A stretch of 64,000 bases of DNA, from positions 96,001 to 160,000 of the forward strand of contig CAWHHI010000004.1 in the NCBI GenBank assembly GCA_963829055.1, given 5' to 3'. A program made the translations under genes and the position numbers. The notes beneath the pieces are model-generated. The model was given only the letters and a program-made list of their open reading frames with translations. It was not told where the DNA came from and ran no database searches. Each line of letters opens with the position of its first letter. Positions within the stretch are counted from its first letter, which is position 1. Of the stretch, positions 306 to 62,564 are shown piece after piece. Source of the stretch: an uncultured Gemmatimonadaceae bacterium. GTDB taxonomy: Bacteria; Gemmatimonadota; Gemmatimonadetes; Gemmatimonadales; Gemmatimonadaceae.

Positions 306-1897
306 CCGATACCTTCGACCGCGGCAGCGGCGCGGTGGACAAGATCGCGACCGGCATTCCTGGCTTCGACATCATTGCGGACGGCGGCCTGCCGCGCGGG
401 CGAGCGACGCTCGTCGCCGGAACGGCTGGCAGCGCGAAGACGATCTTCTCCGCGCACTTCCTCGCCGCCGGCATCACGATGTTCGATGAGGGCGGTGTCT
501 TCGTCACGTTCGAGGACACCCCCGAGGATATCCGCCTCAACGTGCGCGCGTTCGGCTGGGACATCGAAGCATGGGAGCAGGCCGGCAAGTGGGCGTTCGT
601 GGACGTGTCGCCCGAACCGGAAGGTCCGCCACCTGTCGTGGGCGGATTCGATCTCGGCGCCCTGCTCGCGCGCATCGAGCACGCCGCGAAGCGAGTGAAT
701 GCCCGCCGCATCGTGCTCGACTCCATGAGCGCGTTGTTCATGACGCTCGACGACCGCGCGTTGCTGCGCACCGAGCTCTATCGCATCTCGCTGGCGCTCA
801 AGCGTGAGGGAATGACCGTCGTGTTCACGAGCGAGCGCATCGCGGACTACGGCGACATCACGCGGTTCGGCATCGAGGAGTTCGTCGCCGACAACGTGCT
901 CCTGCTGCGCAACATCCTCGTGGATGAGAAGCGCCGGCGCACGATCGAGATCCTCAAGTTTCGCGGCGCGTCGCACCAGCGCGGTGAAGTTCCGTTCACG
1001 ATCACGGGCGAAGGGATCGTCGTCATCGCGCTCACGGCGCAGGAGCTGACGCAGGGATCGACGACCGTTCGTATCACGTCCGGCGTCGCCGAGCTCGATC
1101 GCATGTGCAACGGCGGATTCTTCCGCGACTCGATCGTGCTCGTGAGCGGCGCGACGGGAACGGGGAAGACGCTGCTCGTCACGCAATTCATTTCCGGCGG
1201 GTTCACGACGAACGAGCGGTGCCTGCTGTTCGCGTTCGAGGAGAGTCGCGACCAACTGATTCGCAACGCGCTCGCGTGGGGCATCGACTTCGCTCGCATG
1301 GAGCGCGAGGGCCTGCTCCGCATCGTGAATCAGTATCCGCACGCGATGCCCATGGAAGATCATCTCGTCCGCATGGGCGAGATCATCGAAGAATTTCAGC
1401 CGCAGCGCGTGGCGGTGGACAGTCTCTCCGCGCTCGAGCGCGTGTTCACGCTGCGCGCGTTCCGCGAATTCGTGATCAGCCTCACATCGACGCTGAAGCG
1501 CGGCGGCATCGCGGGTCTGTTCACGTCGACGACCGCCTCGCTGTTAGGCGGTGGGTCCATTACCGAAAAGCACATCTCGACGCTGACGGACTCGATCATC
1601 CTGCTGCGCTACGTCGAGATGTTCGGCGAGATGCTCAGAAGCATCACGGTGCTCAAGATGCGCGGCTCGCTTCACGACACGCGGTTGCGCGAGTTCACGA
1701 TCGATGGCGCCGGGATGCACATCGGCGAGCCATTCCGCCGAGTGAGCGGCATTCTTTCCGGCGTGCACACGTTCAGCGATGGTGATGCCCACGGCGATGC
1801 CGACGGCGCTGATGACGACGGCGACAACGGGAACCACGGGCACGAAGGGCACGAGTCCGCGTCGTCGCGTTCGGGGGAGGCACCGCGCGGTGTGTGA
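302..1897 (+). CDS. kaiC: KaiC double-domain RecA-like ATPase/kinase
   Basis: Two ATPase domains (GTAGSAKT, GATGTGKT), TFED/AFEES, KFRG/KMRG, and the phosphosite segment HISTLTDSIILLRYVE. Confidence 0.95.
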   Translation: MTDTFDRGSGAVDKIATGIPGFDIIADGGLPRGRATLVAGTAGSAKTIFSAHFLAAGITMFDEGGVFVTFEDTPEDIRLNVRAFGWDIEAWEQAGKWAFVDVSPEPEGPPPVVGGFDLGALLARIEHAAKRVNARRIVLDSMSALFMTLDDRALLRTELYRISLALKREGMTVVFTSERIADYGDITRFGIEEFVADNVLLLRNILVDEKRRRTIEILKFRGASHQRGEVPFTITGEGIVVIALTAQELTQGSTTVRITSGVAELDRMCNGGFFRDSIVLVSGATGTGKTLLVTQFISGGFTTNERCLLFAFEESRDQLIRNALAWGIDFARMEREGLLRIVNQYPHAMPMEDHLVRMGEIIEEFQPQRVAVDSLSALERVFTLRAFREFVISLTSTLKRGGIAGLFTSTTASLLGGGSITEKHISTLTDSIILLRYVEMFGEMLRSITVLKMRGSLHDTRLREFTIDGAGMHIGEPFRRVSGILSGVHTFSDGDAHGDADGADDDGDNGNHGHEGHESASSRSGEAPRGV

Positions 1898-3549
1898 ACA
1901 TGTCTGAACACAGCGCCAGCGAATCACCAGTGGAACGGGCGTCGGATCGAACCCGTTTGCGAGTGATCGTCGAACGGATGGCCGACGGCATCATCATCGC
2001 GGACCGCGAAGGTGTGATTCAGTTCGCCAATCCCGCCGCGGAGACGCTGTTCGGCCGACCCGCGGATGACCTCGTGGGCGAGCACTTCGGATTTCCGATT
2101 GTCCGCGAGGACACGAGCGCGATCGAGGTCGTGCGCCCCGGCGGTGAGGTGTTGCACGCGGAGCTTCGCGTGGCGGACATTGAGTGGGAGAGTGAGTCGT
2201 CGTTCCTCATCTCGCTGCGCGACGTCACCGATCGCAAACGCGCGGAGGAGCAGGCGCGTCAACTCCAGCAGGAGCAGGCGGCGCGCACGGAGGCCGAAGC
2301 GGCGAGCCAGGCGAAGTCGGAATTTCTCGCGGTCATGTCGCACGAGCTTCGCACGCCGCTCAACGCGGTCCTCGGCTACACGGACCTGTTGCAGCTTGGC
2401 ATCGCGGGCTCACTCAGCGACGAGCAGCGGCAGCAGTTGCGTCGCATCTCGGCGAGTGGGCGGCATCTGTTGTCGCTCGTGAACGAGGTGCTCGATCTCG
2501 CGCGCATTGAATCGGGGCGCCTCAATGTCGAGCGGCGTCCGATTCGTGCCGCAGACGCCGCCGATGCCGCGGTGGTGATGATTCAGCCACAAGCGGAAGC
2601 TCGCGGACTGACTATCGAGCGCGTCGACGGTGGGATGGAGCCGCTCTGTATCGGTGATCCGGATCGCGTGCGTCAGATTCTCGTGAACCTGCTCGGCAAC
2701 GCGGTGAAGTTCACGCCAGCCGCGGGAAGCGTCATCGTGGACATTGGCGTCGCGGACGCACCGGAGAGCGCCGCTCGTGTGCGTGGCGACGGATCGTGGG
2801 TGTACTTCCGCGTGACCGACACCGGTCCTGGCATTGCCGCCGATCAGCTCGAGTTGATCTTCGCGCCGTTCGTGCAGGCGCAGGGCGGGCGCACGCGCGG
2901 AAAGGACGGCACGGGCCTGGGTCTCACGATCAGTCGTCGTCTCGCGCGGCTGATGAATGGCGACGTCACCGTGCGCAGCAAGCTCGGAGATGGTGCGGTG
3001 TTCACGTTGTGGCTTCCCGAGGCGACCGATGGTGCGCCGCACGGGAGTGACGTCGAGTTGCCGCTGCGCGGACGAGAGCCCGCGGTGCAGGGGCTTGCCG
3101 ACATTGGCGAAGCGTTGATGCGCGATCTGGAGCCGGTGCTCGATGGCTTCGTCGCGCGACTGCGTGAAGCGCCGGGTGTGCCGGGCGCGGAATCGCTGCA
3201 TTTCTCCCAGCTCGCGGATCACGTCCCGAGTTTGATCGCCGACATGGCGGAGACACTCGTGATCATCGAGGAGTCGCGCGGGGAGCCGTCGTCGATCATT
3301 GCGGACGGCACGGCGATTCGTCGGATGATCTCCGACCGCCACGGTGTGCAGCGTGCGCGGCTCGGCTGGACGGTGGACGCGCTCCGTCGCGAGCACGCGC
3401 TGCTGCGCGCTGAAGTCGAGGGCGCGATTCAGCGCCGTTTTCTCGGTGAGCGCGAGGGTCGCATTGCGGAGGCGATTCGGGTGATCGATCAGTTGGTGAT
3501 GGATGCCGAAGCATGCGCCGTACGCGCGCTCGAACGAGAAAGCGGATAG
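1894..3549 (+). CDS. PAS sensor histidine kinase with C-terminal helical (RsbRD_N-like) domain
   Basis: N-terminal PAS, H-box MSHELRTPLN, N-box NLLGNAVKFT, DTGPGI and GTGLGL; overlaps the kaiC stop; alternative start ATG 1900. Confidence 0.9.
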   Translation: MNMSEHSASESPVERASDRTRLRVIVERMADGIIIADREGVIQFANPAAETLFGRPADDLVGEHFGFPIVREDTSAIEVVRPGGEVLHAELRVADIEWESESSFLISLRDVTDRKRAEEQARQLQQEQAARTEAEAASQAKSEFLAVMSHELRTPLNAVLGYTDLLQLGIAGSLSDEQRQQLRRISASGRHLLSLVNEVLDLARIESGRLNVERRPIRAADAADAAVVMIQPQAEARGLTIERVDGGMEPLCIGDPDRVRQILVNLLGNAVKFTPAAGSVIVDIGVADAPESAARVRGDGSWVYFRVTDTGPGIAADQLELIFAPFVQAQGGRTRGKDGTGLGLTISRRLARLMNGDVTVRSKLGDGAVFTLWLPEATDGAPHGSDVELPLRGREPAVQGLADIGEALMRDLEPVLDGFVARLREAPGVPGAESLHFSQLADHVPSLIADMAETLVIIEESRGEPSSIIADGTAIRRMISDRHGVQRARLGWTVDALRREHALLRAEVEGAIQRRFLGEREGRIAEAIRVIDQLVMDAEACAVRALERESG

Positions 3550-3558
3550 TCGAACGGT

Positions 3559-4392: not shown

Positions 4393-5620
4393 ATGAAGAT
4401 CTTCGGCAATCACGATGCGGCGACCATCGCGCAGCTGGAGGATGTCGCCTCACGCGCCGCGGCCGCGGCGCTCATGGCGGACGGGCACGTCGGGTACATC
4501 ATGCCCATTGGCGGAGTGGCTGCGTACCACGAGCAGGTGTCCGTCGTCGGCGTCGGGTTCGACATCGCGTGCGGCAACGCGGCGATTCGCACCGACCTCA
4601 CGCTCTCGCAGCTCGGCGATACCCCCGACGAAGTTGGCCGCACGCTGAGCGGAATTGCCGACGACATTGCCGCCACGGTCAGTTTCGGCATCGGGCGGAA
4701 GAATCGCGCGGACGACGCGCCGGTGGATCATCCGCTGTTCACGGACGCCGCGTGGGACGCCGTGCCGCACAAGCATCGCGCTGCCTTACGCGACAAGGCC
4801 CGCGGCCAGTTGGGGACCGTCGGCAGCGGCAATCACTATGTCGATGTGTTCGCGGATGAGACCGGGACGATCTGGGTCGGCGTGCACTTCGGGAGTCGCG
4901 GCTTCGGCCACACGGTCGCGTCGAGCTTCATTGCTGTCAGCCAGGGCCAGGAGTGGGGAGCGCGTGCGCCCGAGCGCGAAGTGCTGCTCGACCTTCACGG
5001 CACCGATCGGTCACGACTACTGGCACCTCATGAACCTCGCCGGTCGTTATGCATACGCCGGCCGAGAGTGGGTCGCGCGGAAAGTGGTCGAGATCCTCGG
5101 CGCGAACGAGGTGGAGCTCGTCCACAACCATCACAACTTCGCGTGGCGCGAGTCGCACGGTGGGGACGACGTGATCGTCGTGCGGAAGGGGGCGACCCCC
5201 GCGTTCCCCGATCAGCGTGGCTTCATTGGCGGGTCGATGGGCGACGACGCGGTGATCGTCCGCGGCGTGTCGCCTAACGCCGTTTCACCCGATGTCGCGG
5301 AATCCCAGCGGGCCGCGCTGTACTCGACCGTGCACGGCGCCGGCCGCGTGATGTCGCGCACACAGGCTGCGGGGAAGCGGAATCGGAAGACGGGCGCGGT
5401 GATCAAGCCCGGTCAGGTGTCGCCCGAGATGATGCAGGAGTGGGTGCAGCGAAAGGGTGTGATCCTCCGCGGCGGCGGGCTCGACGAAAGTCCTCACGCG
5501 TATCGACGCCTCCCGGAGGTGCTGGCGGCGCAGGAGGGAACGGTCGAGGTCCTCCATACGCTGCGGCCGCTGATCGTCGTGATGGCGGGGGAGAATGAGT
5601 TTGATCCGTACAAAGACTGA
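4393..5620 (+). CDS. rtcB: RtcB family RNA ligase (one frameshift near 5000)
   Basis: DGHVGY, GFDIACG, LGTVGSGNHY and HFGSRG in one frame; HNHHNFA, RKGAT, GGSMG, STVHGAGR and DESPHAYR in the next. Confidence 0.93.
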
Positions 5621-7900: not shown

Positions 7901-8757
7901 CCCGGGTGATCCGCACCGTGGTCGTGGACGACGAGCCGCTGGCACGCGACGGGCTCCGCGTTAGGCTCGGCCGGGAGGACGACGTGGAGATCGTTGGCGA
8001 GGCGGCGGACGGACCGTCGGCAGTCGACGCGATCCTCTCGCTGCGTCCGGACCTCGTGTTTCTCGATGTGCAGATCCCGGGGTTCGACGGCTTCGACGTC
8101 GTCGCGAAGACGGCGTCGACCCATCTCCCGACGATCGTGTTCGTGACGGCCTACGACCGGTACGCGCTGCGGGCGTTCGAGGTTCACGCGCTCGACTACC
8201 TGCTGAAGCCGATTGCGCACCGGCGCCTCCAGGAAGCGCTGCGTCGAGCGCGGCATGAGCTGGGTCGGAGAGCGCGTGAGGAAGAATTGGAGCGCGACCC
8301 TGAGTCGGCGAACGGAGAGAGCGATAGCTCGCCCAGTGCCGATCGACTGCGGAGCCTGCTAGACGAGCGAGAAGCGGCGCTCGGCCTGTCCCTGACGGCC
8401 GGTGCGCCGCACTCCGCGTCGCCTGTGCCCGCGCCACGCTATGCGCTGCGGTTCACGGTGCGCGACGGCGAACGCTATGTGCTCCTGCGTGTGGCCGACG
8501 TGGACTGGGCCGAAGCGTCAGCGAATTACGTGCGGCTCCACGTGGGCCCGAGGATGTTCCAGATGCGCACGACGATGTCGGAGCTGGAGCGGCAGCTCGA
8601 CCCTGCGCAGTTCACGCGCATTCACCGCTCGACGATCGTGAACCTGGATCGCGTCCGCGAGATCCGCCCGGAGTGGCACGGGGAGTACGAGGTGGCATTA
8701 GTGACGGGCACCACGCTCCGGCTGAGTCGCGGGTATCGAGATCGGCTGTTGGGGTAG
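7897..8757 (+). CDS. LytTR family response regulator
   Basis: VVDDEPLAR, LVFLDVQ, FVTAYD, YLLKP and C-terminal FTRIHRSTIVN; GTG start overlaps the kinase stop. Confidence 0.93.
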   Translation: MTRVIRTVVVDDEPLARDGLRVRLGREDDVEIVGEAADGPSAVDAILSLRPDLVFLDVQIPGFDGFDVVAKTASTHLPTIVFVTAYDRYALRAFEVHALDYLLKPIAHRRLQEALRRARHELGRRAREEELERDPESANGESDSSPSADRLRSLLDEREAALGLSLTAGAPHSASPVPAPRYALRFTVRDGERYVLLRVADVDWAEASANYVRLHVGPRMFQMRTTMSELERQLDPAQFTRIHRSTIVNLDRVREIRPEWHGEYEVALVTGTTLRLSRGYRDRLLG

Positions 8758-9055: not shown

Positions 9056-10756
9056 GTGCAGACAATATCGCTTCCCGCTTCCCCGGCAGCGCTCGCCGGT
9101 GCCAACTGGGCTGACATCTCGCCGTATTACGAAGAGCTCGCGACCGCACCGCTGTCCCTCGAGAACGTGGAGGAGTGGCTCAAGAGTTGGTCGCAACTCG
9201 AGGAGATCGTCGACGAGGCTGGAACGCTCGCCATGATCGCCTACACGGGCGATACCGCGAACGCCGAGAAGGAGAAGGCGCACCTGCGCTTCTCGATGGA
9301 GATCTTCCCGCAGGCGCACGAGCAGGGCGTGCGTCTGTCGCGTCGACTCATCGACCTCGGCTACACGCGGCCGGGCCTCGAGACCACCGTGGCCAGGTTC
9401 CGCACCGACGCCGAGATCTTCCGCGAGGAGAACGTGCCGTTGTTCTCGGAGCTGGAGGAGCTCAGCGCGCAGTATCAGAAAATCGTCGGCGGGCTGACGG
9501 TGCAGTGGGAAGGCGAGACGAAGACGATTCCACAACTGCAGCCGTTCCTCAAGGAGCGCGACCGTCAGGTGCGCGAGCGCGCGTGGCGACTCGGCAACGA
9601 AGGCTACCTCGCGCACCGCGATGAGTTCGCGGCGCTGTTCGACAAGATGTTCGTGGCACGCACGAAGGTCGCGGGCAACGCCGGCTTCCCGAACTATCAG
9701 GAGTACGCGTTCAAGTCCAAGCATCGGTTCGACTACACGCCTGACGACTGCGCGCGCTTTCACGCCGCGGTCGAGGCCACCGTGGTGCCGGCTGTGGCGC
9801 GTCAGCTCGAGTATCGTCGCGAGCGACTCGGCCTCGACCGCGTTAGGCCCTGGGACCTTGGTGTAGAGCTCGAGCGTGTGGAGTCACTCAAGCCGTTCGA
9901 GGACGTCGGAACGTTCGTCGATCGCGCGAAATCGATCTTTCATCGCCTGGACCCGAAGCTCGGCGAGGAGTTCGATCTCATGGCCGCCGAGGGGCTGCTC
10001 GACCTCGAGAGTCGGCAGGGAAAAGCGCCGGGTGGCTATTGCACGAAGCTCAGCTACCGCGGGAAGCCGTTCATCTTCATGAACGCCGTCGGCGTCGCGG
10101 ACGACGTGAACACGCTCGTGCACGAGGCCGGCCATTCGTTCCACGACTTCGCCGCACACAAGCAGCCGCTCATCTGGCAGCGATCGCCGGGCCATGAAGC
10201 GGCGGAGTTGGCGTCGATGAGTATGGAGCTGCTCGTGTCGCCCTACCTCGCGAAGCCTGACGGCTACTACTCGCCCGACGAGGCGCGGTCGGCGCGTATC
10301 GAGCACCTCGAGGACATCCTGTTCAGCCTTCCGCACATCGCGAGCGTCGACGCGTTCCAGAGCTGGATCTACACGAGCGGCGAGGGACACGACGCCGCGG
10401 CGCGCGACCGCGCGTGGCTCGAGATCCGATCGCGCTTCGAGCAGGGGATCGACTGGACGGGGCTCGACCGCGAACGCGCCGCGCGTTGGTATCGTCAGCT
10501 GCACATCTTCGAGTACCCGTTCTACTACATCGAGTACGGCATCGCGCAGATGGGCGCCTTGCAAGTGTGGCGTCACAGCCTCAGCGACCAGGCGAAAGCC
10601 GTGCGACAGTACCGCGAGGCGCTGGCGTTAGGCGGGACGCAGGGCCTGCCGGAGATCTATCGTGCGGCGGGCGCTCGCCTGGTGTTCGATGAGAAGACGA
10701 TGGGTGAGCTCGTGAAGCTCGTGGAGGATCGACTGATGGAGATGCGGGCGGGATGA
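9056..10756 (+). CDS. M3 family oligoendopeptidase F
   Basis: GKAPGGYC, TLVHEAGH (HExxH), AELASM and PFYYIEY; start taken at GTG 9056, after the repeat. Confidence 0.92.
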   Translation: MQTISLPASPAALAGANWADISPYYEELATAPLSLENVEEWLKSWSQLEEIVDEAGTLAMIAYTGDTANAEKEKAHLRFSMEIFPQAHEQGVRLSRRLIDLGYTRPGLETTVARFRTDAEIFREENVPLFSELEELSAQYQKIVGGLTVQWEGETKTIPQLQPFLKERDRQVRERAWRLGNEGYLAHRDEFAALFDKMFVARTKVAGNAGFPNYQEYAFKSKHRFDYTPDDCARFHAAVEATVVPAVARQLEYRRERLGLDRVRPWDLGVELERVESLKPFEDVGTFVDRAKSIFHRLDPKLGEEFDLMAAEGLLDLESRQGKAPGGYCTKLSYRGKPFIFMNAVGVADDVNTLVHEAGHSFHDFAAHKQPLIWQRSPGHEAAELASMSMELLVSPYLAKPDGYYSPDEARSARIEHLEDILFSLPHIASVDAFQSWIYTSGEGHDAAARDRAWLEIRSRFEQGIDWTGLDRERAARWYRQLHIFEYPFYYIEYGIAQMGALQVWRHSLSDQAKAVRQYREALALGGTQGLPEIYRAAGARLVFDEKTMGELVKLVEDRLMEMRAG

Positions 10757-11529: not shown

Positions 11530-11601
11530 CGACGTGCTGTACGTTAGGCGCTGCGCGAATTCGCTTTTTCGACCCACCCCTCACGTGATGACGTTCACGC
11601 G

Positions 11602-40532: not shown

Positions 40533-40553
40533 CGATTTTGTGCTTCTGGATCG

Positions 40554-50039: not shown

Positions 50040-50248
50040 GAACGCTCCTCACGTGCGTGAACCGGCAATCTGCTCCCGGGCGCACCACGCGGGAACCCCG
50101 TTGTGACAGGACGCCCTGCCTCGCGGGCATACGGGCCATGAGCGATCTTGCTCGGCCATCACGCCGCGTGGCCGCGACGGCTGCCACGGCGGGCCTCGCG
50201 TTCGTCTTCCGTCCACGCCGGAGCGGTCGGAGCGGTGACTGCGAGCCG

Positions 50249-50824
50249 TTAGGCCATCGTCAGGTGTTCTCGATCTCCGTGCGCTTCGCCACAGCCGGCG
50301 GACGAGTGATGAAGACCATGGCGAGCGCGAACAGGCCGGCTGGCACCCAGACCCACGCGAAATTCGCTCGCGAGTATCGCCAGCCCGCGTGCCGTGAAGA
50401 ACCGGCTGATGCTCATCGGCGACACGAGAATCGGTCGCCACGGGAAGAAGTACCGGTCGTTCACGACGGGGGCGAAGAAGGCGATACCTCCTCCACCCGA
50501 GGTCATGGCGTCGAGCATTCCGTGCGACGCCGTCGCGAGGAAGAGATAGATCCAGACGCGGGCGCGAATGTCGGCATACCGTTCGCCCCGAAACGCGAGC
50601 AGACCCGCAGTGGCGAACAATGCCGCGAACACCAGCGAATGCGTGAAGCCGCGGTGCCCGAAAATGCTCTCGTACGGAACGCCGAGCCAGAAGCCGACGC
50701 CGTCGAGGTCCGGGATCACCGCGCCGACGGCGCCGAGCACCCAGAATCGCGTCGGCAGTTCCGGTCGCCGGAAAGCCGTGCCGATGGCGAGTCCGGCGAC
50801 CGCATGCGTGAAGGCCGATGCCAT
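50249..50824 (-). CDS. YdjM/YbcI-type membrane metal-dependent hydrolase (3' end probably frameshifted)
   Basis: MASAFTH, IPDLD, GHRGFTHS, SHGMLDAMT and RYFFPW. Confidence 0.88.
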   Translation of the reverse strand: MASAFTHAVAGLAIGTAFRRPELPTRFWVLGAVGAVIPDLDGVGFWLGVPYESIFGHRGFTHSLVFAALFATAGLLAFRGERYADIRARVWIYLFLATASHGMLDAMTSGGGGIAFFAPVVNDRYFFPWRPILVSPMSISRFFTARGLAILASEFRVGLGASRPVRARHGLHHSSAGCGEAHGDREHLTMA

Positions 50825-50831: not shown

Positions 50832-53505
50832 TCAGTCGTATCGTAGCGCCTGCACTGGGTCGATGCGAAGTGCGCGCCGAGCCGGCAGCCAACTGGCGAT
50901 CAGCGCCGCGCCGAGCAGCACCACGACTACCAGCGCGAACGTCGCGGGATCCGTCGCCTGGACTTCGAAGAGAACGGCGGACATGAGACGGGTGAGCACG
51001 AACGCGCCCGCAATACCGGCCACGACGCCGGCCACGGCCAGCCCCATCCCCTGACCAACAACGAGTCGAAGTACCGACCGCGGGCTCGCGCCGAGTGCGA
51101 CGCGCACGCCAATCTCCTGTCGGCGTTGGCTCACCGCATACGCGAGCACGCCGTAAATGCCGAGTGCGCCCAGCGTGAGCCCCATGATCCCGAACAGCAG
51201 CAGGAGCGACGCGAGCAGTCGCGGACGCGCGACGGCGCCACCCACGATCGCCGACAGCGACTCGACGCTCGTGATGGTCTGATCGCGATCGACCGACCAG
51301 ATCGCCTCGCGCACCGCGTTCGCGTATCGCAGCGGATCGCCCGTGGTGCGGATCGCGAGACTCAGCCCCGCCCGCATGTTCTGCGGGTAATGAATGTAGG
51401 CCGTCGGCTCGGCCGGCTCGGACAGACTCTTCTGACGGAAATCTCCGACGACGCCGATGATCTGGATGGCCGCCGGGCCCATGCGAAGCACCTTGCCCAC
51501 CGGACTCTCGTTAGGGAAGTATTTCTTCGCGAACGCCTCGTTCACGATCCACACTGGCGGCGCATCCTCTCGGTCGGCGGCCGTGAAGCCCCGGCCGGCA
51601 CGCAGCGGGACTCCCATCGCGCGGAAGTAGTCGGCGCTCACGTGAAGCACGGGGAGGCGGATCTGGCGATCGCCCTCGGTGCTGCCGGCGCTTGCGGGCA
51701 CCGTTGGCGGCCGGAGCTCGCCGACGCCCCGCAGCGGGAAGTCCTTCGCCGCACCCACGGCCTCGACGCCGGGCACCGCCGCGATGCGATCGAGCAACGA
51801 CTGATAGTAATCCCGAATCCTCGCGTCCCCATACTTCTCGTACGTGCATGCCAAGTCTGACGGCGAGCACGTTGCGCGCGTTGAAGCCTGGATCGACGTC
51901 GAGCAGCCGCGCGAAGCTCTTGGTCGCGAGTCCCGCCCCGACGACCAGGATGACGGCGAGCGCCACCTCGGCCACCACGAGCGCGCTTCGCAGATGTTGG
52001 CCCGCGTTGCCGACTGACCCTCTCGAACCAGCGCGAAGGACGCCCTGAAGATTTCGCGACGTCGCTCGAATGGCAGGCAGTAGCCCGAACAGCAACCCGG
52101 CCAGTGTCGAGACGCCGAGGGTGTACAGCAGCACCGTCGCGTCGATGCGGATGGCCGCGGCGCGCGGCAGCTCGCCGGCCCCGATGGCGCCTAACGCTTT
52201 CACTCCTGCATATGCCAGGGCGAGGCCCATCGCCCCGCCTAGGAGCGCCAGCACGAGACTCTCAGTGACGAGTTGGCGCAGAATACGGCCGCGCCCCGCG
52301 CCAAGCGCGGAACGCACGGCAAGCTCGCGCTGGCGCGCCGTCGCGCGAGCGAGCAGCAGGCTGGCGATGTTCACGCACGTGATCAGCAGGACGAACGCGA
52401 CTGCGCCAAGGAGCAGCAGCAACGGCCGCCGGACTTCGCCGGTCAGCGCTTCGCGGACGGGTAGCATCGCGACGTCCGTCCACCCTCGCGCTTCCTGCTC
52501 CCGCTCGGCCGTCTGGCGCGAGATCTCCGCGAGCTCGTCGTGTGCCTGCGCGATAGTCGCCCCGGGCGCCAGCCGCCCGAACACGTCGAGAAAGCGGCTG
52601 GAGCGCTGCCGCCCTATCGCGTCCGGCCCCATGTTCGAGAGCGGCATCCAGAAATCGATGCGGTCGGCGGGGAATGTGAACTCCGGCGGCATGACGCCGA
52701 CGACGGTGTACGGAATGCCGTCGATGGTGAGCGCCCGCCCGATGATCGTGCGGTCACCACCGAATCGTCGTCGCCAGAGGCCGTCACTCAGCACCACGAA
52801 GTGATCGTTGCCGACCACCGCTTCCTCGGATCGAATCGTTCTGCCCAGCGCTGCCCTCGGGCGCAGCGTCTCGAAAAAGCCAGGCGTGAAGTACGCACCC
52901 TGAATGCGTTCGGGCGTTCCGGTGCCGGTGAGGTCCGCGCCGCTCCCGCCCGGTGCGTACCAGTACGCGGCCAATGACGCGAAGCGCTTGCTGGCGACTT
53001 TCCACTCCAGGAAGTCCGGCTCGGACACCTGCGACTTCGGGTCATTCTCCGCCTTGTTCACGTGCCAGATGCGGATCACGCGATCCGCCTCCGGGAAGGG
53101 CAGTGGGCTGAGAAGGACACCGCGCACGACGCTGAAGATGGCGGTGTTGGCCCCGATGCCTAACGCCAGCGTGAGCAGCGCGACGAGCGCGAAACCGGGC
53201 GCCGAGCGGAGCGTCCGCACGGCGTACACGAGGTCGTGCTTGAGCTCTTCGATCATGGTAGTGTGCCGTGTCTCCCGCTCGCGACGCACATCCTCGTCGC
53301 GGCAATAGCGTCTCGTGTATTCGAGGTTTCCGAACCGCTCCGCGGCTGCGCGGCGCGCGTCCTCGAGAGAGAGCCCTGACTCCGTCAGCTCCTCGATGCG
53401 ACGCGCGAGGTGGAACGCCAGCTCGGCGTCCACGTCGTTCGTCACCTGCCGCTTGGTGCGCCAGGCGAATCGGAACTCACGACGGGCTCGGGGTTGGCCG
53501 GACAT
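50832..53505 (-). CDS. Duplicated MacB/FtsX-type ABC permease (ADOP family; frameshift near 51850)
   Basis: ELAFHL, LALGIGANTAIFSVV, RQRELAVRSALGA, EIGVRVALGA and DPVQALR. Confidence 0.92.
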
Positions 53506-53514
53506 GGGACCGCG

Positions 53515-53847
53515 TTAGGCCGTGTCGAGTACGCGGAACAGTGCGCCCATGTACTGCCTGAGCTCGGCGACTTCGGCCTTGAGCTGGCGCCGACCCGCCG
53601 GGGTGATGGTGTAGTACTTCGCACGGTGGTTCTTCTCGGACATCCCCCACTCGGATTCCACGAGCCCCTTCCGCTCGAGACGATGCAGCGCCTGATAGAG
53701 CGCTGCGTCCTCGACCGAGAGCGCGCCCTCGCTCCGGTCGCTGATCCACCGGGCGATGCCATAGCCGTGCATCGCTGTCCATGACAGCGTGCGCAGGATG
53801 AGCACGTCGACCGTGCCCTGGAGCAGTCCGAGCGATTCTTGCGCCAT
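53515..53847 (-). CDS. PadR family transcriptional regulator
   Basis: LLQGTVDVLIL, MHGYGIA, ALYQALHRLE and RAKYY. Confidence 0.93.
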   Translation of the reverse strand: MAQESLGLLQGTVDVLILRTLSWTAMHGYGIARWISDRSEGALSVEDAALYQALHRLERKGLVESEWGMSEKNHRAKYYTITPAGRRQLKAEVAELRQYMGALFRVLDTA

Positions 53848-54115: not shown

Positions 54116-54989
54116 ATGTCGCATCTTCTCGGAGGCGTGATTGTGGCAATCGGGGTCAGGCGCGGGCTAATCGGGTGCGTGACGTTCGCGCTCTGTAGTG
54201 CTGCTGGCTCCGTCGCAACCGGGCAGACCGTGCGTGGCGCGCCGAGTGGATTCGGCCGCTTCGGCGGCGTGTCCGACTGCTCCGATCCGCCGATCAAGAA
54301 CATTCCGTACGACGGTCAGTTCACGTTCGTGCGACTCCGATACAATGGTGGCCCGGGTCAGTGCTACTACCGCGGCGAGCCGGCGTGGGCGCACGGCTAC
54401 GGGTACACGGAGCGCGGCGTCGCCGAGGCGAATCTGATGAAGATCGTCTCCGAGATCAGCGTGATGCATCCGCATCTCGAACGCGACGAACGTGCTCTCG
54501 ATCGATGACCCGGAATTGTTCAGGTATCCGGTGGCGTTCCTGGTCGAGGCCGGATACCTCACGCTGAACGAGAAGGAGGTCGCGGCGCTGCGAAAGTACC
54601 TCCTGCGTGGTGGCTTTCTCATCATCGATGATTCACGCGAGGACGCATTTCGCGGGAACAGCGGCTGGTCGAACACGGCCGCGATGCTCAACCTGGTACT
54701 GCCGGACCTGCACCCGATCGACATCGATGTCTCACACCCGATCTTCCACGCGTTCTTCGACATCCCGTCGTTCGACATCGTTAGGCAGTTCTACGACCAG
54801 GGCCCGCCGATCTTCCGCGGCATCTTCGAGAACAACGATCCGAAGAAGCGGCTCATGGTGATGATCAACTTCAACACCGATGTTTCCAATTTCTGGGAGT
54901 ACTCGGCCCTCGGCTTCATGCCGATGGAGGAGTCGAACGAGGCGTACAAGCTCGGCGTGAACTACCTGTTCTACGCGATGACGCATTGA
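54116..54989 (+). CDS. DUF4159 domain protein (frameshift near 54485)
   Basis: YDGQFTFVRLRY, DDPELFRYP, LRKYLLRGGFLIIDD, HPIFHAFF and AYKLGVNY. Confidence 0.88.
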
Positions 54990-55985: not shown

Positions 55986-56323
55986 TGGAGCCGCCGCGGC
56001 AGGACGCTGCTCGAGCTCATCGTCGCCCACGCGCTGCTCGGCTCATTCTGGCGATCGCGGCTCCGCCGTTCCTCGTCCCAGCTCAGAAGCAGAAGACGTT
56101 CGTCGGCGCGCCCAAGACGCTGCCAATGTCCCGATCGACATCCACGTTCGCGGCGGCGTCATGCACAACGATCACGCAGGGCCTGGCGAACGCGTTAGGC
56201 GACTTCCACGCCGACATCATCGCCGGTACGCAGACCACGAACGTGAGGGTGCTCGTGATCTCGGAGTTCCGCCGCGACGTCCGCGAGAACTCGGCGCGCG
56301 CGTGGCGACGTTCCGAGGAGTAA
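55986..56323 (+). pseudogene. Degenerate prepilin-like gene
   Basis: RRGRTLLELIVAHALLG joins LILAIAAP after one indel, resembling the RRGFTLxEL prepilin motif. Confidence 0.3.
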
Positions 56324-58073: not shown

Positions 58074-59711
58074 GTGCACGCGTCCCGTCTCTCCGTGTTC
58101 TGCCTAACGTCAGCTCTCTGCGTGACCACCGCCGCCGCCCAACAGCGCGCCGCGATACCCGCGGCGAAGCTCGACGGCTTCAAGCGCGAAGCCATCGCCG
58201 ACGTCGACGGCAGAGCGAAGTTCACGCAGCAGATGGTCGACCAGATCTTCAGCTTCGGCGAGCTCGGATTCCAGGAAGTCGAAACGTCGAAGTTCCTCGT
58301 GAAGATTCTCCGCGACAACGGCTTCACGGTCGAAGAAGGCGTGGCTGGCATCCCGACCTCGTGGGTCGCGACGTGGGGGTCCGGCAAACCGGTGATCGCC
58401 GTCGGCTCGGACATCGACGGGATTCCGCAGGCGTCTCAGAAACCCGCGGTCGCGTGTCACGCCGCGCTCGTTCCCGGCGCGCCCGGCCACGGTGAAGGCC
58501 ACAACACCGGACAGCCAGTGAACATCACGGCCATCCTCGCCGTGAAGAAGATCATGGAGCGCGAGAAGCTCCCCGGCACGCTCAAGGTCTGGCCCGGAGT
58601 GGCCGAGGAGCAGTTGGGGACGAAGGCGTATCTCGTGCGCGCGGGCGTGTTCAAGGATGTCGACGTCGCGCTGTTCTCGCACGTCGGCGCCAACCTCGGT
58701 ACGGCGTGGGGACCGGGCGGTGGGTCGGGGCTCGTGTCCGTGTTGTACTCGTTCGAGGGGCAGGCAGCACACGCCGCGGGCGCACCGTGGCGCGGCCGCA
58801 GCGCGCTCGACGCTGTGGAGCTCATGGACATTGGCTGGAACTACCGCCGCGAGCACCTGCGACTGCAGCAGCGGTCGCACTATGTGATCCCCGACGGCGG
58901 CGATCAGCCTAACGTCGTCCCGACGACCGCCTCGGTCTGGTACTACTTCCGCGAGCTCACGTACCCGCAGATCAAGACGATGTGGGCCATGGGCGACTCC
59001 GTCGCGCAGGGCGCCGCGCTCATGACCGGCACGCGGCTGGTGGGGGAGCGCGTCCTGGGCTCGGCGTGGCCGCAGCATTTCAATCGTCCGATCGCCGAAG
59101 CGATGTTCGCGAACATCAAGCGCGTCGGGCTGCCGACATGGAGTGACGCGGATCAGACGCTCGCGAAAGCCGTGCAGAAGGAGATGGGCTCGAAGGAAGA
59201 GGGCATGCCGCTGCGCCTCGACAGCACCATCACGCCCGAGCCCGAGGAACGGAACATGGGCGGTGGCTCCGATGACATTGGCGACGTGTCGTGGAACGTG
59301 CCGACCGTGACGCTGCGGTACCCGTCGAACATTCCGGGGTTGCCCGGGCATCACTGGTCGAGCGCGATCGCCTCCGCGACGCCCATCGCGCACAAGGGCG
59401 CAACCGCGGGCGCGAAAGCCATGGCGACGACGATTCTGGACATCATCGCGAAGCCGGCGCTGGTGGACAGCGCGTGGTCCTACTTCCGGAACGTGCAGAC
59501 GAAGGAGACGAAGTACGAGCCGCTCATGCGCCCTAACGAGAAGCCGGCGACGTTCCTCAACGCGGACATCCTCGACCGGTTCCGTCCGCAGATGCGCCGG
59601 TTCTACTACGACCCCACGAAGTACGCGACGTATCTGGAGCAGCTCGGTATCCAGTACCCGACGCTCCGGAAGTCCAAGGAGAAGTGCGAAGACACGCCCA
59701 CCGTGCCGTGA
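58074..59711 (+). CDS. M20 amidohydrolase (AbgB-like), exported
   Basis: GAGGAGG RBS, GHGEGHN, AEEQ, GRSALDAVE, REHL, GGDQPNVVP and GGGSDD. Confidence 0.9.
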   Translation: MHASRLSVFCLTSALCVTTAAAQQRAAIPAAKLDGFKREAIADVDGRAKFTQQMVDQIFSFGELGFQEVETSKFLVKILRDNGFTVEEGVAGIPTSWVATWGSGKPVIAVGSDIDGIPQASQKPAVACHAALVPGAPGHGEGHNTGQPVNITAILAVKKIMEREKLPGTLKVWPGVAEEQLGTKAYLVRAGVFKDVDVALFSHVGANLGTAWGPGGGSGLVSVLYSFEGQAAHAAGAPWRGRSALDAVELMDIGWNYRREHLRLQQRSHYVIPDGGDQPNVVPTTASVWYYFRELTYPQIKTMWAMGDSVAQGAALMTGTRLVGERVLGSAWPQHFNRPIAEAMFANIKRVGLPTWSDADQTLAKAVQKEMGSKEEGMPLRLDSTITPEPEERNMGGGSDDIGDVSWNVPTVTLRYPSNIPGLPGHHWSSAIASATPIAHKGATAGAKAMATTILDIIAKPALVDSAWSYFRNVQTKETKYEPLMRPNEKPATFLNADILDRFRPQMRRFYYDPTKYATYLEQLGIQYPTLRKSKEKCEDTPTVP

Positions 59712-61503: not shown

Positions 61504-61611
61504 CCGTTGTAGTTGCGTATGGATGCGTGACACGGAGATGGCCAGAAACGTGCGCACTGCTCTCTATGCGCCCCCGCCCCGAAAATCGAAAGTCAACCGC
61601 ACGGAGGAAGC

Positions 61612-61881
61612 ATGACCACGAGTCGCCAGACTCAGGACCTGAATCATCCCGCGATTCGCGAGCTGGTGAACGCGGCGAACGCGCTGCCAACGGATGACCG
61701 CGTCACGCTGCTCAAGGCGCTGGTCCCCGAGATCGCGCGCGAGTTGACGCCGCAGCAGTTCGAGGGCCTGATGGTCGAGCTGCAACTCAAGGGCGCACGC
61801 TTCTACGATGCGCTGTCACACCCGGGGCAGGGACGCGACGCCCGCCACGTGATTGGCGAACGCGACCATGAAGGTCGTTAG
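61612..61881 (+). CDS. Small hypothetical protein
   Basis: GGAGGA RBS, 89 aa helical protein. Confidence 0.7.
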   Translation: MTTSRQTQDLNHPAIRELVNAANALPTDDRVTLLKALVPEIARELTPQQFEGLMVELQLKGARFYDALSHPGQGRDARHVIGERDHEGR

Positions 61882-62564
61882 GCGGCGCTGTCTCCGACAG
61901 GGCCGGAAATCTGAAATCGGCATCGCGGGCGCGGTCCACGCTCACACCGCTGCGTGACCTCGCTTCCCACGAACTCGCTGACGAGGCTCTCCATCGCGCT
62001 GCACGTCTCGGCGTGATGGATCGCGGCAGCGGCCAGCGGGCAGCCGTGGCTCTTGATGATGAGATCGGCGCCTTCCTCCTCGACCTCGGTCAGTCCGCCC
62101 AGCTGATCGAGTAACGCGCTCGCTCCATTGACGCGCTCACGAAGCGTTCCCCTCGGACGAGCGTGTTCTGCGAGCAGCGCGCGCCCTACGTCCCGCATCA
62201 CGCCGTCGAATTCCGTCTGGGTAAGGCGTGCCGCGAGCACATGCAGCAACTGCGTGAGCACCGGGACGTACGCGCGCGACAGCTGTTGCTCGGCCCCATC
62301 TGTGAGCGCGTAGACGTGCGCCGGCTTGGTACGCCCTCGCTGCACGCCGCGCCATTCCACCTGTCGATCCCGCTCCAGAGCCGCGAGCTGTAGCCGGATG
62401 GCTGTGCGCGTCAGCCCGAGCTCGCCGACGAGCTGATCCAGCGTCTGCGGCCCGCGACGCAGCGCAGTGACGACGCGTGTCCGCGTCTGGTCGCGTACCG
62501 CACCGACGTCTTCGATGGGTCTGTCTGCGTCAGAATCTTCGGGAGTATTCATGCGGAAATTCAT
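61878..62564 (-). CDS. HTH transcriptional regulator, SufR-like (Cys-rich C-terminus)
   Basis: wHTH LGLTRTAIRLQLAALE and GRTKPAHVYALT; C-x12-C-x18-C-x7-C. Confidence 0.85.
   Translation of the reverse strand: MNFRMNTPEDSDADRPIEDVGAVRDQTRTRVVTALRRGPQTLDQLVGELGLTRTAIRLQLAALERDRQVEWRGVQRGRTKPAHVYALTDGAEQQLSRAYVPVLTQLLHVLAARLTQTEFDGVMRDVGRALLAEHARPRGTLRERVNGASALLDQLGGLTEVEEEGADLIIKSHGCPLAAAAIHHAETCSAMESLVSEFVGSEVTQRCERGPRPRCRFQISGPVGDSAA

What the first reader, a model, noticed from the sequence alone, without database searches (positions are those of the whole stretch)
1543..61883. Dispersed, strongly over-represented non-palindromic octamer CGTTAGGC/GCCTAACG
Seen: by eye about 60 copies of the core GTTAGG/CCTAAC, of which about 39 are the exact octamer. 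Approximate positions include 5272, 7959, 9841, 10626, 17103, 17343, 19493, 23439, 23791, 27901, 34986, 40057, 44722, 44947, 45492, 52189, 53158, 54779 and 58907. A rough zero-order expectation, assuming about 68% GC, is only 2-3 octamers on both strands. Copies lie on both strands, mostly inside CDS, and in several frames (Ala-Leu-Gly via TTA, Pro-Asn via CCT AAC, Val-Arg via GTT AGG). These frames use codons that look rare elsewhere in this GC-rich DNA, so the signal appears to be at DNA level rather than protein level. Established analogues: Neisseria/Haemophilus DNA uptake sequences, cyanobacterial HIP1 and Chi sites. Inference: a lineage-specific genome mark, such as an uptake sequence, a recombination or repair signal, a modification site or a nucleoid-protein site. 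I know of no description of this motif.
Basis: partly seen in the sequence, partly recalled or inferred. Interest (0 to 1): 0.85.

Follow-up and report, generated by a model that had tools for sequence, protein, structure and literature searches.

The report
Hyper-abundant CGTTAGGC genome word, reader unknown
This soil bacterium, many of its relatives and an unrelated soil phylum write one eight-letter DNA word thousands of times through ordinary genes against their own codon habits, much like the uptake tags of Neisseria and Haemophilus, but what reads the word is still unknown.

Summary
The window holds 39 exact CGTTAGGC/GCCTAACG (0.91 expected) and 61 GTTAGG cores. The 7.78-Mb genome holds 5004 copies, its most over-represented 8-mer.

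The signal is at DNA level:
- It lies on both strands and in all four stop-free frames.
- Genes hold 3082 copies against 150±10 after synonymous shuffling.
- 45% of all TTA codons lie in the word.
- 11-57% of the sites that could carry it silently do so.
- It is kept between species: 58-65% against 22% for all 8-mers.
- Copies avoid each other below about 400 bp.
- Replichore skew is weak at most.

The word is patchy among 201 Gemmatimonadaceae genomes, with one sharp within-genus contrast. It is equally abundant in five Verrucomicrobiota genomes. It equals the attC crossover core of integron arrays in a related genome.

Integron integrase, Vsr, RecC and C5 methylases do not track it, nor two N6 methylase families in the one genus tested. 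ComEC, a PilQ-like secretin and pilins are near-universal in the order.

Best reading: an uptake-sequence-like drive (0.4). This scan found the same word before in other genomes.

The parts
5272..5279 (-). exact octamer copy (CGTTAGGC read on - strand)
   Evidence: conserved in G004 orthologue
7959..7966 (+). exact octamer copy
   Evidence: not conserved in G004
9841..9848 (+). exact octamer copy, in peptidase M3 gene
   Evidence: kept in G003, G005, not in G004, G014
10626..10633 (+). exact octamer copy, in peptidase M3 gene
   Evidence: kept in G014; CGTTAGGT in G005
11542..11549 (+). exact octamer copy
12993..13000 (-). exact octamer copy
17103..17110 (+). exact octamer copy, in CLC channel gene
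   Evidence: kept in G001
17343..17350 (+). exact octamer copy, in CLC channel gene
   Evidence: kept in G001 and G005
18717..18724 (-). exact octamer copy
   Evidence: not kept in G001, G005
19493..19500 (+). exact octamer copy, in dicarboxylate symporter gene
   Evidence: kept in G003; CGTTAGGT in G001, G005
19806..19813 (-). exact octamer copy, in dicarboxylate symporter gene
   Evidence: differs at one (G001, G004) or two (G003) positions in the three orthologues
21473..21480 (+). exact octamer copy
23439..23446 (+). exact octamer copy, in PAS histidine kinase gene (antisense)
23791..23798 (+). exact octamer copy, in PAS histidine kinase gene (antisense)
25465..25472 (+). exact octamer copy
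27901..27908 (-). exact octamer copy, in MacB/FtsX permease gene
28572..28579 (+). exact octamer copy, in MacB/FtsX permease gene (antisense)
31382..31389 (-). exact octamer copy
32836..32843 (+). exact octamer copy
34986..34993 (+). exact octamer copy
   Evidence: kept in G001, not in G003, G004
36068..36075 (+). exact octamer copy
40057..40064 (+). exact octamer copy, in DUF72 gene
   Evidence: kept in G001
40527..40534 (-). exact octamer copy
41465..41472 (-). exact octamer copy, in exonuclease/UvrD-like gene
42172..42179 (+). exact octamer copy
44722..44729 (-). exact octamer copy, in molybdopterin dehydrogenase gene
44947..44954 (-). exact octamer copy, in molybdopterin dehydrogenase gene
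45492..45499 (-). exact octamer copy, in molybdopterin dehydrogenase gene
48240..48247 (+). exact octamer copy
49670..49677 (-). exact octamer copy
50247..50254 (+). exact octamer copy
52189..52196 (-). exact octamer copy, in MacB-like gene
53158..53165 (-). exact octamer copy, in MacB-like gene
53513..53520 (+). exact octamer copy
54779..54786 (+). exact octamer copy, in DUF4159 gene
56193..56200 (+). exact octamer copy
58102..58109 (-). exact octamer copy
58907..58914 (-). exact octamer copy
61876..61883 (+). exact octamer copy

Best explanation
CGTTAGGC is a stand-alone 8-bp DNA word. In its effective form only the edge positions 1 and 8 and position 6 tolerate a change. An active, sequence-specific process that reads DNA, not protein or RNA, writes and keeps it throughout the chromosome. 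The most likely process is the one proposed for the uptake sequences of Pasteurellaceae (USS) and Neisseriaceae (DUS). A surface or periplasmic DNA receptor of the type IV pilus/ComEC uptake route prefers fragments that carry the word. Recombination of such fragments then spreads word-creating mutations through the population (molecular drive), with or without selection for taking up DNA of one's own kind.

Shown here: the DNA-level nature of the word, its maintenance between species, its even spacing, its absence from a foreign block, and the presence of uptake genes.

Inferred, not shown: that uptake is biased, that a receptor exists, and that these bacteria are competent at all.
For: Abundance and sharpness:
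- The genome holds 5004 copies (2547 +, 2457 -), 0.64 per kb. It is the top 8-mer by observed over zero-order expected, at 16.9x.
- Most word-poor relatives hold only 5-50 copies in 2-6 Mb.
- The logo is a sharp octamer with almost no information in the flanks.

Indifference to coding:
- In my gene calls the frames count xCG-TTA-GGC 1223, GTT-AGG 412, CCT-AAC 860 and CTA-ACG 578. The two frames that give stop codons count 2 and 8. A further 1919 copies lie outside or at the edge of called genes.
- Called genes hold 3082 copies, against 150 +/- 10 after synonymous shuffling and 61 +/- 7 after codon-order shuffling.
- 1224 of 2728 TTA codons lie in the word.
- The word fills 22%, 11%, 20% and 57% of the peptide contexts that could encode it silently.
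- It supplies the stop codon of 350 called ORFs.

Maintenance:
- In 284 kb of orthologous DNA at 79% identity, the word is exactly conserved in 52 of 80, 52 of 81, 53 of 88 and 53 of 92 cases. All 8-mer windows are conserved at 21.7-22.5%.
- In genus g56, five rich sequences from four genomes share many copies. The word-poor congener G125 has none at the 9 aligned positions, and twice has the preferred-codon version CGCTCGGC.

Even spacing, as reported for USS (that comparison is recalled):
- Gaps under 200 bp number 213 observed against 610 expected.
- Against a null that re-deals copies among silent-opportunity sites, gaps under 100 bp number 22 against 157 +/- 12, and gaps under 200 bp number 85 against 293 +/- 15.
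- The same deficit is seen in G001, G005 and G014.
- This fits one tag per fragment being enough. It does not fit a site-autonomous mutation bias.

Symmetry:
- Neighbouring copies show no orientation correlation at any distance.
- Replichore skew is weak at most: rho 0.16, p 0.057.

Variants: the one-off variants that are enriched differ at positions 1, 8 and 6. TGTTAGGC is at 4.2x, CGTTAGGT at 3.5x and CGTTATGC at 3.8x.

Foreign DNA: a 49.6-kb block (C6:5440-55037) of housekeeping genes has no copy, against about 32 expected. Divergent second copies of those genes lie elsewhere in the genome.

Machinery: ComEC is found in 40 of 41 relatives, a full-length PilQ-like secretin in 40 of 41, and type IV pilins in 41 of 41.
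Against: - No receptor was found. The ComP_DUS family gave only sub-threshold pilin-like matches (18.8-21.6 bits against a cut-off of 27.3), and none in rich G014.
- ComEC, PilQ and the pilins are just as present in word-poor relatives. The machinery therefore does not explain who has the word.
- I found no paper that links Gemmatimonadota or Verrucomicrobiota to uptake sequences. I know of no report of natural competence in either phylum; this is recall, not a search.
- Five Verrucomicrobiota genomes carry the identical octamer at 0.8-1.4 per kb. By recall, DUS and USS are family-bound, so this has no precedent among them. In two of those genomes that I sampled, spacing is near-random, so the dynamics may differ there.
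- The word equals the integron attC crossover core. The uptake model does not predict this.
- Inverted pairs that could act as terminators, common for DUS, are rare here.
- One contig shows a mild strand bias: C16 0-550 kb has 158 + against 111 -.
- My gene calls are crude. They cover 71% of the genome, and the assembly has many frameshifts.
Confidence: 0.4

Rival explanations
1. The word is the binding or recognition site of a chromosomal protein, and selection keeps it at a regular density. The protein could be a nucleoid-structuring factor. It could also be a 'self' signal that halts or tames a DNA-degrading or defence machine in either orientation. The gene for the reader would have moved horizontally, which would explain the patchy and cross-phylum distribution.
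For: The even spacing and short-range exclusion up to about 400 bp fit a need for one site per stretch, or a footprint. There are no hot spots: the maximum is 9 copies per 4 kb. The word is read on both strands alike. The identical word is abundant in two phyla. The within-genus on/off contrast fits gain or loss of a single gene. The foreign block lacks the word.
Against: No candidate protein was found. Known nucleoid and partition sites are, by recall, mostly palindromic or degenerate and far less enriched. Known self-protection signals (Chi) are orientation-skewed. In the two Verrucomicrobiota genomes sampled the spacing is near-random, which does not fit a fixed footprint.
Confidence: 0.3
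2. The word is tied to integron biology. It is the crossover core (R' box) that integron integrases cut. Its spread through chromosomes would reflect an integrase-like recombinase, or an uptake or recombination system tuned to the attC core of gene cassettes.
For: In the related word-poor genome G027, a run of same-strand copies about 600 bp apart is a cassette array. Most copies end an attC site with the inverse core GCCTAAC about 90 nt upstream. An integrase fragment lies beside a second such run of copies, on contig C80, that I did not inspect. attC-like arrays that carry the exact octamer also occur in Acidobacteriota, a betaproteobacterial MAG and Arenimonas. A chance match of the top 8-mer to one given 7-mer is unlikely, roughly 1 in 4000 before allowing for the many known motifs one could compare with.
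Against: Integron integrase (TIGR02249) is over the cut-off in 24 of 41 relatives. These include many word-poor genomes. It is missing or broken in rich G002, G004 and G014. In G000 the copies have no inverse core partner, no hairpin context and no orientation pairing. The DNA beside its only integrase-like gene shows dispersed words, not attC sites. That GTTRRRY is the general attC core is recalled; I did not find a passage stating it.
Confidence: 0.1
3. The word is a methylation site, and a repair bias (as in very-short-patch repair, proposed for HIP1-like words) converts near-matches into the word.
For: A site-directed repair bias would act on both strands and in any frame. A Dam-class (D12) methylase-like gene is present in 5 of 5 genomes of genus g56, and an Eco57I-type gene in 4 of 5.
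Against: Vsr was found in 0 of 8 rich genomes and only in 4 poor ones. No C5 methylase was found in 37 of 44 rich genomes, while 39 of 129 poor genomes have one. N6_N4 methylase was missing from 3 of 4 rich g56 genomes. N6_Mtase was missing from 3 of 4, with one weak fragment in the fourth, yet both families are present in the word-poor congener. The D12 and Eco57I-type genes are also in the poor congener, so they do not track the word. A site-autonomous bias does not predict the short-range exclusion. The word is not a palindrome.
Confidence: 0.07
4. The word is a Chi-like or KOPS-like polar signal read by a recombination nuclease or a DNA translocase.
For: It is an 8-mer, non-palindromic and over-represented. 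One contig shows a mild bias that switches with GC skew: C16 has 158 + / 111 - before 550 kb and 173 + / 197 - after.
Against: Genome-wide the strands are equal (2547/2457). In bins of positive GC skew the counts are 976/919, and in bins of negative skew 1385/1382. RecC was not found in 40 of 41 relatives, including all 8 rich ones; AddAB and AdnAB were not tested. By recall, the enrichment and the use of rare codons far exceed those of any known Chi.
Confidence: 0.03

Closest known systems
USS of Pasteurellaceae (9-bp core) and DUS of Neisseriaceae (10-12 bp, dialects, receptor ComP; Frye et al. 2013, PMC3630211, and Berry et al. 2013, PMC3868556: search listing and start of abstract seen only)
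   Same: A short non-palindromic word at about one copy per 1-1.5 kb. It lies on both strands without replichore skew, mostly inside genes and in any permitted frame at the cost of rare codons. It is conserved between species, spaced more evenly than chance, and enriched in some one-off variants. It varies between related lineages and is missing from foreign DNA. The genomes encode type IV pilus and ComEC genes.
   Different: It is only 8 bp and its flanks carry no information. It does not form terminator-like inverted pairs. No ComP-type receptor was detected. The identical word occurs in a second phylum. It is on or off within one family, and even within one genus, without related 'dialects' being seen; I did not search word-poor genomes for other words. 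Biased uptake and competence are untested.
HIP1 and other highly iterated palindromes of cyanobacteria
   Same: A hyper-abundant octamer imposed on coding sequence, kept by an unknown process, with lineage-dependent abundance.
   Different: HIP1 is a palindrome linked by hypothesis to methylases (recalled). This word is asymmetric. The methylase and Vsr families tested do not track it.
Integron attC recombination site, R' (1R) core GTTRRRY
   Same: The octamer is C plus GTTAGGC, exactly the 3' crossover core of the attC sites in the cassette array of relative G027 and of arrays in other phyla.
   Different: In G000 the copies lack the inverse core, the imperfect hairpin and the cassette spacing. 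Integrase presence does not follow word density.
Chi (RecBCD/AddAB) and KOPS/SRS (FtsK/SpoIIIE) polar octamers
   Same: Over-represented asymmetric 8-mers read on chromosomal DNA.
   Different: Those are strongly oriented with replication (recalled). This word is not. RecC is missing from 40 of 41 relatives.

Membership tests
DNA uptake sequences (USS/DUS) | Short word hundreds to thousands of times over-represented genome-wide, on both strands, in genes and spacers | tested here: met
   The genome holds 5004 copies, against 0.91 expected per 64 kb by dinucleotide shuffles. All stop-free frames are used, and 1919 copies lie outside or at the edge of called genes.
DNA uptake sequences (USS/DUS) | Competent cells take up word-bearing DNA preferentially | not testable with these tools
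   This needs an uptake or transformation assay in a cultured word-rich strain.
DNA uptake sequences (USS/DUS) | A specific receptor (ComP minor pilin for DUS) | tested here: inconclusive
   PF16732 gave no match over the cut-off in 5 genomes. Weak hits of 18.8-21.6 bits fall on ordinary pilins, and there is none in rich G014. The hit pilin family is present in 41 of 41 relatives, rich and poor.
DNA uptake sequences (USS/DUS) | DNA uptake machinery encoded (type IV pilus, secretin, ComEC) | tested here: met
   ComEC in 40 of 41, a PilQ-like secretin in 40 of 41 (below the curated cut-off but full length), and pilins in 41 of 41. These are equally present in word-poor genomes.
DNA uptake sequences (USS/DUS) | More even spacing than chance | tested here: met
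   Gaps under 200 bp: 213 observed against 610 expected. Against the opportunity-site null: 85 against 293 +/- 15. Not met in the two Verrucomicrobiota genomes sampled.
DNA uptake sequences (USS/DUS) | Restricted to one family, with related dialects | tested here: not met
   The same octamer is abundant in 5 Verrucomicrobiota genomes. Within Gemmatimonadaceae it is on or off by genus. I did not search for dialects in word-poor genomes.
DNA uptake sequences (DUS type) | Frequent inverted pairs that act as terminators | tested here: not met
   Only 38 pairs lie closer than 60 bp. The four orientation classes are about equal, and there is one clear hairpin.
Chi / KOPS polar sequences | Strong orientation bias with the direction of replication | tested here: not met
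   Spearman rho 0.16, p 0.057. Counts are 976/919 in bins of positive GC skew and 1385/1382 in bins of negative skew. One contig shows a mild bias.
Chi (RecBCD type) | RecBCD present | tested here: not met
   RecC (PF04257) found in 1 of 41 relatives and in none of the 8 rich ones. AddAB was not tested.
HIP1-like / methylase plus very-short-patch repair | Palindromic word; cognate C5 methylase and Vsr-type nuclease | tested here: not met
   The word is asymmetric. Vsr found in 0 of 8 rich genomes. C5 methylase found in only 7 of 44 rich genomes.
Any DNA modification site | A modified base in the word | not testable with these tools
   All 24 runs listed are kept as contigs, not raw reads.
Integron attC site | Core GTTRRRY paired with inverse core RYYYAAC across an imperfect hairpin of about 60-130 nt | tested here: not met
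   Core identity is met. In G000, however, the flanks carry no information, -/+ pairs at 50-200 bp are not enriched, and no attC sites lie beside the integrase-like gene.
Integron attC site | Co-occurrence with an integron integrase | tested here: not met
   IntI is over the cut-off in 24 of 41 relatives, including many poor genomes. It is missing or broken in rich G002, G004 and G014.

The most novel reading that the evidence does not exclude
Two unrelated soil phyla have, independently or by transfer of one reader gene, tuned a DNA-uptake or recombination system to the universal crossover core of integron gene cassettes (C-GTTAGGC). Free cassettes and DNA of the cell's own kind would then both be captured preferentially. 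The thousands of chromosomal copies would be the footprint of that preference. This would be the first uptake-type specificity shared across phyla, and a direct link between natural transformation and the integron cassette pool.
Probability: 0.08. Interest if true: 0.92.

Novelty: new variant of a known kind. Interest (0 to 1): 0.8.

Why it matters
By recall, uptake-type 'self words' are experimentally known in only two proteobacterial families, and how they arise is still argued.

This case adds several things:
- One word reaches 1000-7800 copies per genome in 15 of 68 Gemmatimonadaceae genera sampled. It reaches 2150-5190 copies in five Verrucomicrobiota genomes.
- Density varies within genera, from 173 to 1991 in g16 and from 1100 to 7821 in g69. 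One genus shows a near on/off contrast, 66 copies against 3244-4141.
- The word fills up to 57% of the sites that could carry it silently. It accounts for almost half of all TTA codons. It therefore visibly shapes codon usage and stop codons.

The identity with the integron attC core, if not chance, would tie the word to the main gene-cassette exchange system of soil bacteria.

In practice the word is a strong lineage marker for binning. In this MAG it flagged a 50-kb foreign or chimeric block.

Tried and rejected
Explanations rejected:
1. Chance or composition: rejected by dinucleotide, synonymous-codon and codon-order shuffles.
2. A protein motif or codon-pair effect: rejected. Four frames, both strands, stop codons and uncalled regions all carry the word.
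3. A mobile element or repeat: rejected. The flanks carry no information, and the genome has almost no repeats, 36.5 kb in two-copy segments.
5. Vsr, C5 methylase, N6_N4 and N6 methylases: absent from most or all rich genomes tested.
6. D12 and Eco57I-type genes: present in rich and poor congeners alike, so they do not track the word.
7. RecC: absent from nearly all relatives.

Leads that did not discriminate:
8. ComEC, PilQ and the pilin family hit by ComP_DUS are near-universal in the order.
9. A recently shared mobile element between the two phyla: no segment of at least 80% nucleotide identity between 399 kb of Verrucomicrobiota DNA and G000.

Attempts that failed or gave nothing usable:
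11. Methylation from read data: impossible, because all runs are kept as contigs.
12. SNPs in the laid contigs: none of the 40 differences listed falls in a copy, but 629 were not shown and only 0.24 were expected, so this has no power.
14. A script bug printed the order-4 Markov expectation in all three columns, so only order 4 is used.
16. Literature: searches for the octamer string returned primers only. No paper joins Gemmatimonadota to 'uptake sequence'. Three incidental papers mention Verrucomicrobia. I opened no supplements.

Full report
**Observation.**
- One search finds 39 exact CGTTAGGC/GCCTAACG in the 64-kb window (23 +, 16 -). Dinucleotide-preserving shuffles give 0.91, with a largest value of 4.
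- One search finds 61 GTTAGG cores against 5.95 expected.
- The window is G000:C4:96001-160000, part of a 7.78-Mb assembly of 20 contigs with 66.7% G+C.
- Genome-wide there are 5004 copies (2547 +, 2457 -), spread over every contig at 0.48-0.80 per kb.
- It is the most over-represented 8-mer in the genome, at 16.9 times the zero-order expectation.
- A logo of all copies shows a sharp octamer. Only slight preferences appear next to it: G or T before, G or A after.

**The signal is at DNA level.**
- I called genes crudely by codon statistics: 6159 genes covering 71% of the genome. Coverage is low because the assembly carries many frameshifts. In the window, RtcB, LigD, UvrD-like, MacB and TonB-receptor genes are split.
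- Within called genes the word sits in all four frames that avoid a stop. The counts are xCG-TTA-GGC 1223, GTT-AGG 412, antisense CCT-AAC 860 and antisense CTA-ACG 578. The two frames that give stop codons count 2 and 8. A further 1919 copies lie outside or at the edge of called genes.
- Genes hold 3082 copies. Shuffling synonymous codons within genes gives 150 +/- 10, and shuffling codon order gives 61 +/- 7.
- 1224 of 2728 TTA codons (45%) lie in the word, as do 15% of CTA and 10% of CCT codons.
- Many of the peptide contexts that could encode the word silently do so: 22% of [SPTA]-L-G, 11% of x-V-R-x, 20% of [SCRG]-L-T and 57% of x-P-N-x.
- The word also provides the stop codon of 350 called ORFs: 186 of 765 TAA stops and 164 of 1683 TAG stops.

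**Symmetry and spacing.**
- Word orientation correlates only weakly with GC skew in 145 bins of 50 kb (rho 0.16, p 0.057). One contig shows a mild bias: C16 has 158 + and 111 - before a skew switch, and 173 + and 197 - after it.
- Neighbouring copies show no orientation preference at any distance. Close pairs are rare, with 38 pairs closer than 60 bp.
- Gaps under 200 bp are three times rarer than an exponential distribution predicts, 213 against 610. Gaps of 400-1600 bp are in excess.
- This is not an effect of where the word can be encoded. I re-dealt the 3071 in-gene copies among the silent-opportunity sites. The null gives 157 +/- 12 gaps under 100 bp and 293 +/- 15 under 200 bp. The observed numbers are 22 and 85.
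- Samples of G001, G005 and G014 show the same deficit.
- There are no hot spots. The maximum is 9 copies in 4 kb.

**Maintenance.**
- Same-genus genomes differ from G000 by about 21% of bases in orthologous DNA.
- Over 284 kb of alignments, all 8-mer windows are exactly conserved at 21.7-22.5%. The word is conserved in 52 of 80, 52 of 81, 53 of 88 and 53 of 92 cases. The small window-only sample gave 10 of 27.
- With such high site occupancy, retention cannot be told from re-creation at the same site. Either way, the word is actively kept in both lineages.
- Where one genome lacks the word, the other state is often one or two changes away. Examples are CGTTAGGT, CGTCAGGC, CGTTCGGC and CGCTCGGC.
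- Genome-wide, the one-off variants that exceed an order-4 Markov expectation differ at positions 1, 6 and 8. TGTTAGGC is at 4.2x, CGTTATGC at 3.8x and CGTTAGGT at 3.5x.

**Distribution in relatives.**
- Among 41 relatives, all 7 genomes of the genus carry 2501-5112 copies, and one other genus carries 6360. Several genomes carry 170-600. Most carry fewer than 50, which is below the reversed-word control.
- A sample of 201 Gemmatimonadaceae genomes from 68 genera gives 44 genomes with at least 1000 copies, in 15 genera. Another 28 genomes carry 100-999, and 129 carry under 100.
- Density is largely a property of the genus but varies within genera: g16 runs from 173 to 1991, and g69 from 1100 to 7821.
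- Genus g56 holds a sharp contrast. G125 (5.2 Mb, 96% complete) has 66 copies. Four congeners have 3244-4141.
- In a 9-kb syntenic stretch of that genus, 13 positions carry the word in at least one of five rich sequences, and five positions carry it in all of them. G125 aligns at 9 of the 13 positions and has the word at none. Twice it has CGCTCGGC, the preferred CTC codon in place of TTA. G125 is also the most divergent member, at 71-76% identity against 79-81% among the rich four.
- These tallies include the unpublished genomes G013, G058 and G104. No conclusion depends on them.

**A second phylum.**
- I scanned one genome per species for three same-strand copies 258-288 bp apart.
- The stretches fall into four classes:
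  - CRISPR-like arrays with a period of about 72 bp;
  - tandem coding repeats;
  - integron attC arrays;
  - dispersed, mixed-strand loci in Gemmatimonadaceae MAGs and in Chthoniobacterales/Verrucomicrobiae MAGs.
- Five of the latter genomes hold 2152-5186 copies in 2.6-4.3 Mb, against 187-357 for the control.
- In 345 kb sampled from two of them, TCGTTAGG and CGTTAGGC are the top 8-mers, at 1.3-1.6 copies per kb. Strands are mixed.
- There, unlike in Gemmatimonadaceae, spacing is close to random.
- No DNA segment of at least 80% identity is shared between 399 kb of these genomes and G000.

**Integron link.**
- In the word-poor relative G027, a same-strand run of copies about 600 bp apart is a cassette array. 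Most copies end an attC site of the form GCCTAAC...GTTAGGC.
- An integrase fragment lies beside a second such run of copies, on contig C80, which I did not inspect.
- The word is therefore C plus the attC crossover core. That GTTRRRY is the general attC core is recalled; searches did not yield a passage stating it.
- Integrase does not track the word. It is over the cut-off in 24 of 41 relatives, many of them poor, and it is missing or broken in rich G002, G004 and G014.
- G000's copies have no attC context.

**Other candidate readers.**
- Vsr: found in 0 of 8 rich genomes and in 4 poor ones.
- RecC: found in 1 of 41 relatives.
- C5 methylase: found in 7 of 44 rich, 6 of 28 medium and 39 of 129 poor genomes.
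- In genus g56, N6_N4 methylase is missing from 3 of the 4 rich genomes. N6_Mtase is missing from 3, with one weak fragment in the fourth. Both families, and C5 methylases, are present in the poor congener.
- A D12-class gene is in all 5 g56 genomes and an Eco57I-type gene in 4 of 5, including the poor congener.
- ComEC is in 40 of 41 relatives, a PilQ-like secretin in 40 of 41, and type IV pilins in 41 of 41. These are near-universal.
- ComP_DUS gave only sub-threshold matches to ordinary pilins.

**An internal control.**
- The longest word-free stretch is C6:5440-55037, 49.6 kb at 69.9% G+C, where about 32 copies are expected.
- It encodes housekeeping genes: phosphoglucomutase, chorismate synthase, TrpE/TrpD, DAHP synthase, leucyl aminopeptidase and FtsK.
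- Only distant second copies of these genes (32-58% amino-acid identity) lie elsewhere in the genome.
- It is therefore foreign DNA or a chimeric join. It shows that the word is a property of the lineage, not of the assembly.

**Interpretation.**
- The facts call for a reader that recognises this octamer in DNA regardless of strand, frame and transcription. Its effect must saturate locally, and it must be gained or lost on the time scale of genera.
- The uptake-sequence model fits most of this, and the uptake genes are present. I rate it 0.4.
- A chromosomal binding or self-recognition site fits nearly as well. I rate it 0.3.
- An integron-related reading rests on the sequence identity alone (0.1).
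- Methylation or repair drive (0.07) and Chi/KOPS-like signals (0.03) failed their tests.
- Nothing here shows uptake, binding or competence.

**Earlier work and literature.**
- Earlier notes of this scan had already reported the same word in other Gemmatimonadaceae and in Verrucomicrobiota genomes, and its likeness to the attC core. I re-tested those points here.
  - the opportunity-site spacing test;
  - the occupancy figures;
  - the within-genus g56 contrast;
  - the negative tests of Vsr, RecC, the methylases and the pilins;
  - the difference in spacing between the two phyla;
  - the foreign block.
- I found no publication on the word.

Noticed in passing
G000:C6:5440-55037 (outside the window): A 49.6-kb word-free block at 69.9% G+C, near a contig end. 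It encodes housekeeping genes (PGM, aroC, trpE/D, DAHP synthase, PepM17, FtsK). Only distant homologues of these (32-58% amino-acid identity) lie elsewhere in the genome. It is probably a chimeric join or a large foreign insert. A D5_N primase-like gene sits at about 7.5 kb. The first 50 kb of C11 is also nearly word-free (2 copies).
   Followed up: partly
window 4294-5620, 10753-12966, 36125-38449, 40892-43859, 50832-53505: Several genes are split into adjacent or overlapping ORFs: RtcB, TonB-dependent receptor N-termini, LigD, an exonuclease/UvrD-like helicase, and a MacB-type permease. This suggests indel errors in the assembly. The genome's completeness of 85.9% fits that.
   Followed up: partly
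L001 (G027:C95:1-20000); also G027:C80, G027:C43, G025:C3: Word-poor relatives carry large chromosomal integron cassette arrays. The one inspected, L001, has 23 copies in 20 kb, most ending attC sites that run from GCCTAAC to CGTTAGGC, and it continues to about 23.7 kb. The other three runs are inferred from their spacing only.
   Followed up: partly
L016, L017, L021, L033, L038, L045, L081, L088 and others: A family of 36-bp CRISPR-type repeats (GTG...GATGCCGTTAGGCGTTGAGCAC, period about 72 bp) carries the octamer. It occurs in cyanobacteria, Haliangium, a Thermoguttaceae MAG and others. A Nitrosopumilaceae MAG has a different repeat that holds the same octamer. Within these repeats GCC-GTTA-GGC could form a small hairpin.
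   Followed up: partly
G014:C182:835-1781: In the most word-dense relative of the first sample, the integron integrase is broken into three pieces in different frames.
   Followed up: no
genus g56 (G125 against G072, G162, G193, G219): The word-poor congener carries C5, N6_N4 and N6 (type I-like) methylase genes that are largely missing from the four word-rich congeners. Across 201 genomes, C5 methylases are somewhat rarer in rich genomes (7 of 44) than in poor ones (39 of 129). The genomes are related, so this is not an independent test.
   Followed up: partly
G219:C199 and G219:C222: Two full-length copies of the same 9-kb syntenic region, each about 80% identical to G072. The bin may hold two related strains or species.
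   Followed up: no
window 302-3549: A KaiC-like double ATPase gene overlaps by 4 bp with a PAS histidine kinase gene at the start of the window.
   Followed up: no
G041 and G043 samples (L152-L170): In Verrucomicrobiota the word extends to TCGTTAGGC. Copies often lie 10-20 bp apart on the same strand, and long same-strand runs occur. This behaviour differs from that in Gemmatimonadaceae.
   Followed up: partly
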